Part shown: positions 553 to 57,716 of the stretch, one piece after another | Layout: the number at the start of each line of letters is the position of its first letter | How positions within the stretch are numbered: position 1 is the stretch's first letter | Origin: Centroscyllium fabricii | Lineage: Eukaryota | Length of the DNA stretch: 64,000 bases | Assembly: GCA_051313645.2 (NCBI GenBank) | Contig: JBNRSN020000023.1 | Span: 4,154,001-4,218,000, forward strand | Direction of reading: 5' to 3' | Program-made: the position numbers and the translations under genes | Notes under the pieces: generated by a model | Database searches by the model: none | What the model was told of the DNA's origin: nothing | The model's input: the letters and a program-made list of their open reading frames with translations, nothing else

Positions 553-3500
553 ATGGCCTCCCAAGTGCGTCAGAACTACCACAAGGACTGTGAGGATGCT
601 GTCAACAAGCAGATCAACATGGAGCTCTATTCCTCCTATGTTTATCTTTCCATGGTGAATCTTGTGTTTTTGGGATCCTGTTTCAAAATTAAGGCTGTGG
701 TGTCTTATTCTAAGCAGATAGAATTTTTCTAGGTCAATGAATTGTCTTTGGAGTGTCTCTCTATAGTCCTCCTGGTGTGCCTTAAATAGAGACTGAGACA
801 TGTAGTTATAACTCAAAGTTGGCTTTTAATAGCTTGGAACTGGAGCCACATGTTGCCTTACAGAAATGGCTTCTCAGACTGAACAAGGAGGTGGAGCCAG
901 GGGTGAGGTCACCGACCTGGACAATCAATGGCACAACAGAGTGAACACAGCATTCCTGGCCAACCAAGAAAACAGCAGGGTTGCAATAGATTACAATAGG
1001 GAACTATACACAGGTCGAATGAGGTATACTTAAAACTTATTTCACCACAGCTCCCCAGTCTTAATCCAGTGAATACTCTTAATGCAGTGATCTTGCAAAA
1101 GGCCTCATTAACAGACTATTCTGACTCCAATAGTTGTGTAACTCCAGGGTTTCATGAAATTTGCAATCGAGGATCCATCTTCAAGATGCATAAACCTGGT
1201 CATGTTTTGCAACTTGGATTGAGACAATTAGATTTAATCGGGTGACTAGTTAGTGAAGCATTGGCTGGTTCTGGCCAGTTTTTTTCTTCTTTCTAATTGA
1301 AATATTAAGAATTTGGTTCTGTCTTCCTCAGAGTCTGGATCCTTGAGTTTGAAGATTTTGTGTTTTTCACTGATTTTTAGACTTCTGTCTGGGAACAAAA
1401 GGATGAACTGCTGATAAATTGAGCAGTGCAAGTTATGCTGAAATGAAACTTTACTTCAAAGTGTTACCACTAATGTTTTCTACTAATTCAACAGCTTGAA
1501 AGTCCTGCAGGGAAGGGCTTTCAACATATTCAGAAAAGCAAATTTGAGTTGAAAGTGTTGCAGTGTAGAATGGCTAACTTATCCACAAAGATGGTCCTTC
1601 CATTTTTGAGTTGGCCATGGATGAAATCTAGGTTTGACCTGACTAGATTAGATTCACTTTATTGTCATTACACAGTACAAGTACAATGCAACGAAATTAG
1701 GTGTGTCCAACCAGAGTGCAAACAGCAATTATATGCATATATACAAATAATACACAGTAAAAGAGTATATACAGTAAGTGCAGTGGGTAGACATGCTGTA
1801 AAAAATACACTATTTGAAAGGTATATTCACTATAGGCATATGTACAACCAATTTAAGAATATAATGGCATATCATGATCTTCAAGGGCTAGGCAGTATGA
1901 GACTGGGTGGAGTTCTTTGTCAACAGTCTGACCGCTGAGGGGAAGAAGCTGTTAATAGTCCTGTTGGTTCTGCCTGGGAGGCTGCGATAGCGTGGCCCAG
2001 AGCGAGTGCCACGTTGGGCGATAAACAGTCCATGGTTGGGGTGAGAGGTGTCTCTGATGTTGTGTGCCCTTCTTAAGCACCGCCTCTCATAGACTGAAGT
2101 GATGGATGGGAGTGAGGTCTTGGTGATGCGTTGGGTGATTTTCACCACCTTCTGCAATGATTTCCGGTCGCTGATGGTGCAGTTGCCGTACCAGACTGAG
2201 ATGCTCTCAATGGTACAGCGGTAGAAGTTCACCAACACCTGAGAGGACAGGCGAAGTTTAGCCAGTTTCCTCAGGAAGAGGCGCTTGTGGGCCTTCTTGA
2301 CCAGAGTTGAGGTGTTGGTGGTCCAGGAGAGGTCTTCAGAAATGTGAACTCCCAGGAACTTAAAGCTGGTGATACGCTCAACCTCCTCCCCATTGATATG
2401 GATGGGGGTGTGCGTGCCTTTCTTTGTTCCTTCTGAAGTCCACGATAATCTCCTTGGTGGTCTTGGTGTTGAGTGCCAGGTTGTTGGCACACCACTCTGC
2501 TAGGTGCTGGACCCCTTCCCTGTATGCTGTCTTGTCGTTGTTGCTGACGAGCCCAATCACTGTGGTGTCGTCTGCAAACTTGACAATGGTGTTTGAGCCA
2601 TGGACAGGATTGCAGTCATGCGTGAAAAGGGAGTAGAGAAGGGGACTTGGCACGCAGCCCTGCGGGAGACCAGTGTTCAGGATGAGGGAAGAGGATTTGT
2701 GCTTGTCCAGTCTGACGTGCTGGGGTCTGTTGGTCAGAAAGTCTAGTATCCAATTAGAGGGAGGGGTCGATGCCAAGGCCAACAAGCTTGGTGATCAGTT
2801 TGGAGGGGATGATGGTATTGAATGCCAAGCTAAAGTCAATGAACAGGGGTCTCACGTAGGTGTTGCTCTGGTCCAGATGGTAGAGGGCAGGGTGTAGTGC
2901 AGCTGAGATGGCATCATCCGTACTCCTGTTCTGACGGTAGGCAAACTGGTAGGCGTCAAGTGTGGATGAGAGGCATGATTTAAGATGAGCCAAGACCAGC
3001 CTCTCTAAGCACTTCATGATGGTGGAGGTGAGTGCCACGGGTCGGTAGTCGTTTAGGCTCACTGGGGAGGCGTGTTTAGGAACAGGCACCATAGAGGTCG
3101 ATTTGAAGCACTTAGGGACTTTTGCTTGGGCCAGAGACAGATTGAAAATGTTGGTCAGGACCCCGGTCAGTTGCTCAGCACAAGCGCTGAGTACACGTCC
3201 GGGGATGCCATCAGGGCCAGCAGCCTTACGTGAGTTGGTCCTGCTCAGTGCAGCATACACATCAGTGGGGGAGAGTGAGGGGAAGGTGGTTTGCAGGGAT
3301 GGTGGCCTTGGTGGCCATCACGTGGTTGTCCCTGTCAAAACGAGCATAAGTCGTTTAGCTCATCTGGAAGGGAGTGGTCGGGGGGGGGAGGCGTGGGTGG
3401 ATTTAAAGTCTGTGATGGCCTGCAAGCCCTGCCACATGCGCCGAGGGTCAGAGACATTGAAGTGCTCCTCCACCTTCTACTAACTTCCATTTGCCTTGCA

Positions 3501-5152
3501 GTCCTATTACTTTGACCGGGATGATGTTGCCCTGCGTCACTTTGCCGAGTTCTTCAGGGAGCAATCACACGAGGAATGGGAGCACGCAGAGAAACTGATG
3601 AAATTCCAGAATCGGCGTGGAGGCCGAATCATCTTGGAGGACATCAAGGTTGGATTTACCGAAGGCCGGGCCTTCTGTGATACATTAAAATAATTTCGTC
3701 CTTGTTTTCAACAGTTGGCTTAACCGTACACCCATATGTTAGCACGTGGTGTCTGCCGGCACACTCGAGACCTTCCGTGACTAGTGGGGACTCGAGTGCA
3801 TCACCCCCTGGTAACCAAATTGTAATTTATTAAGTTACCGTTTATTGATGGCACCAAAAGAGTACACCCAAAGTTCTTAAACTGAGATTACGGGTAAAAT
3901 TGCTGGTGTGGGGGAGAGTTTGCAAATACTTGGAAGGCACAAACTGATGGGAGTTGGCTTTACTGTTCTCTGGGTCATTGACCTGGTGGATACAGGAGGA
4001 TCCGTGTATGGATGTTCAGATGGAATGAGTTTCTGTCCAACAAACTGGTAGCTGAAACTACAACGAGGGCCTTCTGTATGCTGTCCTTAAATTGGGTCTT
4101 TAAGGAAACCATTTGTGTTGGACTTGCCTTAATTTGATTCCAATAGTCGATTGCATAATTTGGTAATTGCTATTCATGGGTGTGATAAAATAGATGGCCA
4201 TTCGTGTTGCCTGTTATCCCTCCTAAGTAGATTGTCCTTCAATTTCATACATTGTAAATCAACTGGCTGAGATCTGTTTTACCTGTTCAGAAACCAGAGC
4301 AGGATGCATGGAGCAATGGTCTGGAGGCGATGCAGAGAGCTCTGCAGATGGAGAAGAATGTCAACCAGAGTCTGCTGGATCTGCACAAACTCTCCACTGG
4401 GAGCACCGACCCTCATGTAAGTTCCTTATGTTCCAACTATGAAGCTTCAGATGTGTTGAGTATGATGGCTGAGGCATTTATCTGCCCTTTAATGCAACTG
4501 TTGGGCAGTTCAATTGCAGATTTCAACAAGCACGATGGCAGTGGTTAGCACTGTTGTCTCACAGCGCCAGTGGCCCCGTTTCAAATCCGGCCTCGGGTGA
4601 CTGTGCAATCATTCTCCCCGTGTCTGCGTGGGTTTCCTCCCACAGTCCAAAAATGTGTGGGTTAGGTTGATTGGCCAGGATAAATTGACCCTTGGTGTTA
4701 GGGGGATTAAATGTGTGGGGTTACGGGGATAGGGTGGGATTTGTCGGTGCAGGCTTGATGGGCTGAAATGGCCTCGATCTGCTCTTACTGACACCTGCTG
4801 TAGACTTGATCATGTAACTTGTCCTGGGTCACTCCAGTATCTGACGCATTAAGATGTTGTAAGAGTTCTTATCCAACTGTAAACTGATTAATCTGGGGAA
4901 AGATCACTACTTGTCCCAACCATCCAATCCAGGAGAAGATTCCTGTGTTGCACTTGATCTGTTGTCCTGTACTATAACTGGTTTCTTTCTTTCTTTCAGT
5001 TGTGTGACTTCCTGGAGAGCCACTACTTGGATGAACAAGTGAAGATGATCAAGAAGCTTGGAGATCACATCACCAACTTGAAGAGACTGGGAGCCCCTGA
5101 GAATGGCCTGGGAGAGTATCTGTTTGACAAGCACACCCTGGGAGAAGAGTGA
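553..5152 (+). CDS. Ferritin (H/middle-subunit-like) copy g1, 175 aa, 4 exons
   Basis: Exons 553-654, 3502-3648, 4291-4416, 5000-5152, all GT-AG and phase 0. [10 protein letters not shown]...[75 protein letters not shown] 5294-5299. Confidence 0.95.
1646..3478 (-). mobile_element. 5'-truncated Rex1/Babar-type LINE in g1 intron 1
   Basis: Frameshifted RT ORFs 2754-3260, 2378-2785, 1888-2490 ([48 protein letters not shown]). AATAAA plus (aatct)n tail near 1646-1665; probable ACTA TSD. Confidence 0.85.
4530..4785 (+). mobile_element. HE1/V-SINE-like SINE in g1 intron 3
   Basis: tRNA-like head (gtggttagcactg...ttcaaatcc) and the conserved core ttctccccgtgtctgcgtgggtttcc...cccacagtccaaa. Confidence 0.8.
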
Positions 5153-57400: not shown

Positions 57401-57716
57401 AAGCTGGAGTTTGTTTCAGATATAAACAATTCAGCTATTACAGGGCAGTAAACAGCCTGTTAATGAAGCTTTTCACAAGATCACTGGGCCAAGATTATTC
57501 ACTGGATTATGATTGGGGAGGACTATAGAGATACTCTAAAGCCCATTTGCTGACCTGGAGAAATTCTACCTGCTTAGAATTCAATGATGCCTGAAATAGG
57601 ATCCCAAAACTCACCATGGAGAGATAAACATAGGAGGAATCGAGCTCCATGTTGATCTGCTTGTTGACAGCATCCTCACAGTCCTTGTGGTAGTTCTGAC
57701 GCACTTGGGAGGCCAT
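54437..57716 (-). CDS. Ferritin copy g8, 173 aa, 4 exons
   Basis: Exons 57716-57615, 56827-56681, 55926-55801, 54583-54437; GT-AG; variants MELDSS, LEVM, APEDG; AATAAA 54316-54311. Confidence 0.94.

What the first reader, a model, noticed from the sequence alone, without database searches (positions are those of the whole stretch)
553..57716. Eight-copy tandem/inverted array of catalytically intact ferritin genes
Seen: eight four-exon ferritin genes in ~57 kb, seven with open frames, arranged as a + array (3) facing a - array (5). All intact copies keep the H-chain ferroxidase ligands (human numbering E27, Y34, E61, E62, H65, E107, Q141) and the 3-fold channel D131/E134, plus E57 as in middle-subunit ferritins. 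Known: most vertebrates have a few dispersed intron-containing ferritin genes, though teleost fthl clusters exist. Inference: a lineage-specific dosage expansion under birth-and-death evolution in a probable elasmobranch.
Basis: partly seen in the sequence, partly recalled or inferred. Interest (0 to 1): 0.75.

Follow-up and report, generated by a model that had tools for sequence, protein, structure and literature searches.

The report
Part of sharks' known ferritin expansion
This is a real cluster of seven complete and one broken iron-storage (ferritin) genes from a shark, belonging to a shark-wide gene expansion that is already published, though the copies carry an unusual amino acid beside the catalytic site and lack the usual iron-sensing switch.

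Summary
The array is real, but it holds seven four-exon ferritin genes plus one three-exon pseudogene (copy 4); copy 3 has a weak GC splice donor. All seven keep the listed ferroxidase ligands and are under purifying selection (pooled dN/dS 0.21). It is not a lineage-specific novelty: the proteins fall in an elasmobranch-wide clade (95% identical to sawshark proteins; database clusters of 127-180 members), and tandem ferritin expansions across sharks are published (Sahm 2024 preprint, ovary-specific; Yang 2026 PNAS, 'FTH1b', 59 copies). Most likely role: high-dosage, iron-independent ferritin synthesis in oocytes (inferred). Interest 0.33.

The parts
553..5152 (+). Copy 1, complete, 175 aa; exons 553-654, 3502-3648, 4291-4416, 5000-5152; older type (own 3'UTR, TLGEE C-terminus, LINE fragment in intron 1)
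11826..14660 (+). Copy 2, complete, 173 aa; exons 11826-11927, 12721-12867, 13672-13797, 14514-14660
20036..23189 (+). Copy 3, open frame, 173 aa, but weak GC donor at intron 3 (22025); exons 20036-20137, 20933-21079, 21899-22024, 23043-23189
27990..30279 (-). Copy 4, pseudogene: exons 30178-30279, about 29203-29346 (donor destroyed), 27990-28115; no exon 4; dN/dS against its sister copy 7 is 0.68
33049..36761 (-). Copy 5, complete, 173 aa; exons 36660-36761, 35351-35497, 34416-34541, 33049-33195
40897..43798 (-). Copy 6, complete, 173 aa; exons 43697-43798, 42711-42857, 41786-41911, 40897-41043
48541..51495 (-). Copy 7, complete, 173 aa (H60R, F132L); exons 51394-51495, 50402-50548, 49466-49591, 48541-48687
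54437..57716 (-). Copy 8, complete, 173 aa (Y29D); exons 57615-57716, 56681-56827, 55801-55926, 54437-54583
277..552 (+). Shared promoter and leader (about 280 nt, present in 8 of 8 copies at 93-97% identity to copy 2's): TGACATCA at about -276, two to four ATTGG (inverted CCAAT) boxes, TATAAA at -87, no IRE; similarity stops within about 30 nt upstream
11165..11540 (+). Retroposed spliced ferritin fragment (exon 3 joined to exon 4, 156 nt, 84% identical to the array consensus), then a 36-nt tandem repeat and an AATAAA-bearing tail
19100..19729 (-). Second, 5'-truncated copy of the retro-fragment with about 11 repeats, AATAAA and poly(A)
27250..27490 (-). Third copy of the retro-fragment, fused to the cut intron 3 of copy 4; this is the junction of the + and - arrays
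31604..31649 (+). Decayed ferritin leader and exon-1 start (ATG lost), head-to-head with copy 4
52818..52863 (+). Duplicate of that remnant, head-to-head with copy 7

Best explanation
The window is a piece of the shark multicopy ferritin cluster (called FTH1b by Yang et al. 2026; FTH1/FTL copies by Sahm et al. 2024). It grew by unequal crossing-over of one- to three-gene blocks plus an inverted duplication, loses copies by truncation, and is kept uniform in promoter, exons and 3'UTR by purifying selection with short-tract gene conversion. Most likely it works as a dosage amplifier: many near-identical compact TATA/CCAAT genes without an IRE make large amounts of H-type ferritin independent of iron status, chiefly in the ovary, to stock iron and buffer Fenton chemistry in large lipid-rich eggs; Met144 probably tunes the ferroxidase site rather than abolishing it. 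Shown here: gene structures, selection, clade, absence of IRE, Met144, block duplications, a spliced retro-fragment. From papers: shark-wide expansion, ovary-specific expression of the largest Greenland shark cluster. Inferred: conversion, ovarian expression of these particular copies, egg provisioning, effect of Met144. Identity as part of the shark expansion about 0.95; oocyte dosage role about 0.6.
For: Closest hits are shark proteins at 91-95% identity, with cluster sizes 138, 180 and 127. Window proteins lie in an elasmobranch clade with 99/95 and 99/94 support. Sahm et al.: 155 FTL and 179 FTH1 copies, ancient, three clusters, ovary-specific. Yang et al.: sharks generally have more FTH1b copies, 59 in two tandem clusters. 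Pooled dN/dS 0.21, p=5e-10. TATA in 8 of 8, AATAAA in 7 of 7. No Rfam match in the window at gathering scores and no IRE at E<=10 around copy 2's leader; the CAGTG-like loop pairs 2 of 5 and lacks the C bulge in 8 of 8. Exon 3-exon 4 junction present without its intron at 11165-11320, which needs a germline mRNA. Copy 7 against copies 2, 3, 6, 8: 3'UTR 4-7 mismatches of 125, introns 19-20%, p<=1.3e-5; intron tree resolved, coding tree a star. Blocks copy4-5 and copy7-8 align over 8.9 kb at 7.9% mismatch; copy2-3 and copy6-5 inverted over 8.3 kb at 8.5%.
Against: No expression data for these copies. Yang et al. found part of the FTH1b copies transcribed in fin and blood (ovary is not mentioned in its main text), so expression is not only ovarian. 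Fourfold-site support for conversion is modest: p<0.05 in 4 of 8 cross-class pairs, which are not independent; promoter and 3'UTR similarity could be selection alone. No conserved cytoplasmic polyadenylation element was seen in the 3'UTRs by eye. The retro-fragment proves transcription of some family member at some time, not of these copies. I could not see the papers' figures or sequences, so matching their labels to this clade is inference.
Confidence: 0.65

Rival explanations
1. A recent expansion specific to this species, evolving by birth-and-death alone.
For: Copies are 93-96.5% identical in protein and shark sequences tend to group by species or order; one dead copy and two remnants.
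Against: Multi-member clusters in at least four shark genera and published cross-shark expansion with conserved cluster synteny; introns are much older than exons.
Confidence: 0.07
2. The dosage serves somatic iron control, ferroptosis protection or longevity (hypothesis of Yang et al. 2026).
For: Transcripts of some copies in fin and blood; highest count in the Greenland shark (passages).
Against: High counts also in species without extreme lifespan (stated; clusters in bamboo sharks); ovary-specific signal in Sahm et al.; germline retro-fragment.
Confidence: 0.15
3. Met144 blocks or slows the ferroxidase centre, so these subunits act more like L chains (nucleation, storage) despite keeping the ligands.
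For: Position 144 is a small or acidic residue (A, S, D) in catalytic chains and mostly a bulky one (L, I, V) in L chains; frog M D140 is listed as a ferroxidase-centre residue; S144A changes activity in mitochondrial ferritin.
Against: All seven ligands are kept in 7 of 7 window copies and in 27 of 43 near-full-length family representatives; sharks have a separate K62 L-like family; human H A144S had negligible effect and animal H chains vary here.
Confidence: 0.2
4. Near-neutral, repeat-driven amplification of mostly inert copies.
For: Spacers are full of retroelement fragments; 16 of 43 cluster representatives have lost a ligand (representatives over-weight odd copies).
Against: dN/dS 0.21 among the seven copies against 0.68 for copy 4 versus copy 7; promoter conserved in 8 of 8.
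Confidence: 0.05
5. Assembly artefact (haplotypes laid in tandem, or a false join at the inversion).
For: The + and - arrays meet inside a repeat at about 27490; reads were not available.
Against: Duplicated blocks differ by 6-8.5% with copy-specific insertions; no N in the window.
Confidence: 0.03

Closest known systems
Shark 'FTH1b' tandem clusters (Yang et al. 2026, PMC13214024; passages and supplement term search seen, figures not)
   Same: Tandem four-exon ferritin copies with some truncated members; increased copy number in sharks generally.
   Different: The passages and term searches show no residue-level, IRE or conversion analysis; my tree rejects orthology with teleost fth1b. Their truncated copies lack 5' exons, copy 4 here lacks exon 4.
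Greenland/white shark FTH1-FTL clusters (Sahm et al. 2024, 10.1101/2024.09.09.611499; abstract, one results passage, sections 10 and 17 seen; supplements closed)
   Same: Ancient clustered expansion, mostly full-length copies.
   Different: Their clusters mix 'FTL' and 'FTH1' copies; this window holds only the E62 type, no K62 L-like copy.
Pristiophorus, Heptranchias and Chiloscyllium 'ferritin heavy chain-like' proteins (P0011, P0060, P0057)
   Same: About 88-95% identity to one another and to the window copies, Met144, same clade.
   Different: Six window copies end at ...KHSLS, two to three residues shorter; no database protein was identical to a window copy among the 120 listed.
Vertebrate FTH1 (H chain)
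   Same: Ferroxidase and channel residues, four-exon plan (exon plan recalled), fold (TM 0.94 for homologue P0011).
   Different: A/S at 144 versus M; IRE in leader versus none; low-copy versus array; separate clade in best trees.
Teleost and amphibian middle (M) subunits; teleost fthl clusters (clusters recalled, not tested)
   Same: Full ligand set, short N-terminus, often E57 and K147.
   Different: A/S/D at 144; separate clades in best trees, deep link unresolved.

Membership tests
Ferritin (PF00210) | Ferritin domain and four-helix bundle with short E helix | tested here: met
   Pfam on 4 of 4 exons; model of the 95%-identical homologue P0011, pLDDT 88, TM 0.94 to H ferritin
H-type (catalytic) ferritin | Ligands E27, Y34, E61, E62, H65, E107, Q141 | tested here: met
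   7 of 7 complete copies
H-type (catalytic) ferritin | 3-fold channel D131/E134 and transit E140 | tested here: met
   7 of 7
H-type (catalytic) ferritin | Small or acidic residue (A/S/D) at 144 | tested here: not met
   Met in 7 of 7; Met in 0 of 160 non-chondrichthyan hits
H-type (catalytic) ferritin | Measured ferroxidase activity | not testable with these tools
   needs protein assay
FTH1/fth1a orthologues | Monophyly with FTH1 | tested here: inconclusive
   Separate in best trees (FTH1 clade 96/92, family 99/95) but AU p=0.16, and 0.064 with chondrichthyan H only
FTH1/fth1a orthologues | 5' iron-responsive element | tested here: not met
   No Rfam hit; loop pairs 2 of 5, no C bulge, in 8 of 8; transcription start inferred from the TATA box, not mapped
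Teleost fth1b | Monophyly with teleost fth1b proteins | tested here: not met
   AU p=0.0005; smelt and Polymixia fth1b sit in the ray-finned H clade 98/87 (two fth1b rows, LG+G4)
Middle (M) subunit | Monophyly with teleost or amphibian M | tested here: inconclusive
   Separate in best trees; AU p=0.10 and 0.13; E57 is shared with chondrichthyan H
L chain (FTL) | Loss of ferroxidase centre (K62 and others) | tested here: not met
   E62 kept in all copies
L chain (FTL) | Descent from the FTL lineage | tested here: inconclusive
   Joined at SH-aLRT 91, not; AU p=0.31
Shark multicopy ferritin cluster ('FTH1b') | Tandem array of intron-containing copies in a clade with multicopy shark proteins | tested here: met
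Shark multicopy ferritin cluster ('FTH1b') | Synteny with the published cluster chromosome | not testable with these tools
   No flanking gene in the window; no vertebrate genome collection on hand
Shark multicopy ferritin cluster ('FTH1b') | Ovary-biased expression | not testable with these tools
   Only indirect: spliced retro-fragment

The most novel reading that the evidence does not exclude
Sharks have a fourth vertebrate ferritin class, misnamed FTH1b: an IRE-free, oocyte-amplified subunit whose fixed Met144 gives a ferroxidase centre with chemistry unlike H, M or mitochondrial ferritins, co-amplified with a separate K62 L-like family to build a maternal egg ferritin and held uniform for over 250 million years of cluster history by exon- and promoter-limited gene conversion.
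Probability: 0.3. Interest if true: 0.62.

Novelty: new member of a known kind. Interest (0 to 1): 0.33.

Why it matters
The headline (many ferritin genes in a shark) adds little to two published genomes. What would matter is the anatomy. If the amplified family is IRE-free and ovarian, the expansion is about provisioning eggs rather than longevity, which bears on the ferroptosis hypothesis now in print. Met144 is a natural, lineage-fixed variant at a position known to tune ferroxidase chemistry and can be assayed with one recombinant protein and one point mutant.

Tried and rejected
Species make-up of the large protein clusters could not be looked up, so member counts (138, 180, 127) are not per-genome copy numbers and may mix species, isoforms or assemblies. 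FTL ancestry looked supported in the first tree but not; dropped to unresolved. The careful mixture-model tree did not finish; its quick version is what one search shows. AU tests against H, M and L placements rejected none. A sister relation to sawshark had 98/87 but was unresolved, so the species is left at 'shark, probably squalomorph'. Search for L-like copies in the window found none. Rfam and ARAGORN found nothing. The structure model gives no side-chain geometry, so Met144's effect was not modelled. PDB sequence searches showed only the top five alignments, so no scan for a solved Met144 ferritin was possible. A regex count of residue 144 missed 58 rows and was redone by alignment. Nineteen of 293 proteins (unnamed or with implausible labels) were dropped before counting. 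Literature: 10 searches. Seen: Sahm 2024 (abstract, passage, sections 10, 17); Yang 2026 (passages, supplement term search; found through a reference list); PMC11719527, PMC10114856, PMC12092714, PMC5568229, PMC13701976 (passages); all others as listings only. bioRxiv supplements and all figures were unseen and may already hold residue or IRE remarks.
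Full report
Observation. Motif scans and BLAST with copy 1 locate eight ferritin loci, three on + and five on -, at the coordinates given. Exon models with 102, 147, 126 and 147-153 nt give open frames for seven copies, 93.0-96.5% identical in protein and 94.9-97.3% in DNA. Copy 4 is not a four-exon gene: a 15-nt tandem insertion replaces its exon-2 donor, its intron 3 stops about 270 nt short of where its sister copy 7 has exon 4, and no exon 4 follows. Copy 3 has CAT|GCAAGG at intron 3; GC donors normally need a near-perfect consensus (recalled), and the nearest GT at +5 shifts the frame, so six copies are secure.

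What it is. A search with exon 4 returned mostly shark proteins; the closest is a sawshark cluster at 91-95% identity to the complete copies, and clusters of 138, 180 and 127 members are named from sawshark, sevengill and bamboo shark. These counts may mix species and isoforms; that could not be checked. In careful trees the window proteins sit in an elasmobranch clade (99/95 and 99/94) with one chimaera protein as sister (99/94), apart from the FTH1 clade that holds skate fth1a and chimaera H. Its deeper link to H, M or L is unresolved: four AU tests and one gave p 0.064-0.31. Monophyly with teleost fth1b is rejected (p=0.0005, two fth1b rows). A second multicopy shark family has K62 and is L-like; none of it is in this window.

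Prior knowledge. Sahm et al. [quoted passage not shown] Yang et al. (PMC13214024, passages) report that sharks generally have more 'FTH1b' copies, 59 in two tandem clusters in the Greenland shark, some transcribed in fin and blood, and propose a ferroptosis link. So the expansion is known and not specific to this lineage. Term searches of the Yang main text gave 0 hits for ferroxidase, gene conversion, iron-responsive, ovary and concerted, and of its five supplements 0 for ferroxidase and IRE; 'iron' occurs 0 times in the Sahm main text. Figures and the bioRxiv supplements were not visible.

How the array evolves. The block holding copies 4-5 matches the block holding 7-8 over 8.9 kb at 7.9% mismatch, and copies 2-3 match 6-5 inverted over 8.3 kb at 8.5%; the intron tree joins 4+7 and 5+8 with full support. 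That is unequal crossing-over plus an inversion, with death of copy 4 and two decayed 5' remnants. Selection is purifying: 34.5 synonymous and 28.5 non-synonymous distinct variants over 102 and 408 sites, ratio 0.21, p=5e-10; copy 4 versus copy 7 gives 0.68. But copy 7 differs from copies 2, 3, 5, 6, 8 by 17-22% in introns and only 3-7% in the promoter, 0-7% in exons and 3-7% in the 3'UTR (3'UTR p<=1.3e-5 in 4 of 4 pairs tested), and the coding tree is a star. Copy 1's introns 2-3 are about 24% diverged and missed by BLAST, yet its exon 1 and exon 3 differ by 1-3%. Fourfold sites agree in direction, significant in 4 of 8 cross-class pairs. Short-tract gene conversion is the likely cause (inference); selection on regulatory and synonymous sites may contribute. 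Divergence of this size, copy-specific insertions and no N argue against collapsed haplotypes; the inversion junction itself needs reads.

Regulation. All eight copies share about 280 nt of promoter with TGACATCA, two to four ATTGG boxes and TATAAA at -87 (-90 in copy 8); all seven complete copies have AATAAA. No IRE is found by Rfam, and the CAGTG-like loop in the leader pairs 2 of 5 without the C bulge, whereas H and L mRNAs are IRE-controlled (PMC11719527, passages). A basking shark model whose N-terminus runs through the TATA region resembles the window's translated leader, hinting that the promoter is conserved across sharks (one case). A 156-nt fragment joining exon 3 to exon 4 without intron, 84% identical to the array consensus and followed by a 36-nt repeat and an AATAAA tail, occurs at 11165 and, truncated, at two duplicated sites. 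It needs a spliced mRNA in the germ line, in line with ovarian expression.

Catalysis. Every complete copy has Met at human position 144, as do 85 of 114 chondrichthyan hits and 0 of 160 other named hits (L 61, S 57, A 35, V 4, D, I, T 1 each). The equivalent frog M residue D140 is listed in the ferroxidase centre (PMC10114856, table), and S144A raises activity of mitochondrial ferritin, although A144S in human H had negligible effect and H chains vary here (PMC12092714, passages). The fold of a 95%-identical homologue is an ordinary ferritin. 'Catalytically intact' is therefore likely but untested.

Mechanism and verdict. Best reading: a dosage amplifier giving large, iron-independent ferritin output in oocytes, to store iron for the embryo and shield a lipid-rich yolk; structure, selection, missing IRE and Met144 are shown, ovarian expression comes from another shark, and function is inferred (0.65). 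Rivals are a somatic anti-ferroptosis role (0.15), an L-like slow subunit (0.2, partly overlapping), a species-specific recent expansion (0.07), neutral amplification (0.05) and artefact (0.03). The finding is a new member of a published kind; interest 0.33, rising to about 0.6 if the Met144, IRE-free oocyte class is confirmed.

Noticed in passing
window 58971-64000 (+): Apparently intact non-LTR retrotransposon: ORF1 729 aa with zinc knuckle, ORF2 over 942 aa with endonuclease and reverse transcriptase, running off the window, 61% GC, downstream of a (CT)13 tract at 58751-58776. Tx1-like by recall; a microsatellite-targeting type is possible, untested.
   Followed up: partly
window 11165-11320: 17 of 25 differences between the retro-fragment and the gene consensus are A>G or T>C, whereas the genes' own variants are mostly G>A or C>T (29 of 61). 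Unexplained: GC-biased conversion, passage in a GC-rich element, or editing.
   Followed up: partly
database proteins P0109, P0277, P0280, P0283, P0290: A second multicopy shark ferritin family with K62 (L-like), clusters of 43, 76 and 45 members; it may be what Sahm et al. count as FTL.
   Followed up: partly
   Followed up: no
window, about 285-310 nt upstream of each ATG: Similarity among copies ends sharply just upstream of TGACATCA, and different repeats abut there in most copies; either an insertion hotspot or the edge of the conserved unit.
   Followed up: partly
window 1891-3483, 6069-7141, 9622-10104, 24571-24999, 45252-46196: Decayed retroelement fragments (reverse transcriptase, endonuclease, DUF7041) in intron 1 of copy 1 and in spacers.
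   Followed up: no
window 33011-33042 and 35992-36065: A (CTT)n tract in the 3'UTR of copy 5 and a 36-nt tandem duplication in its intron 1.
   Followed up: no
database proteins P0162, P0191: Vertebrate-like ferritins labelled as bacterial, probably contaminated records; left out of all counts.
   Followed up: no
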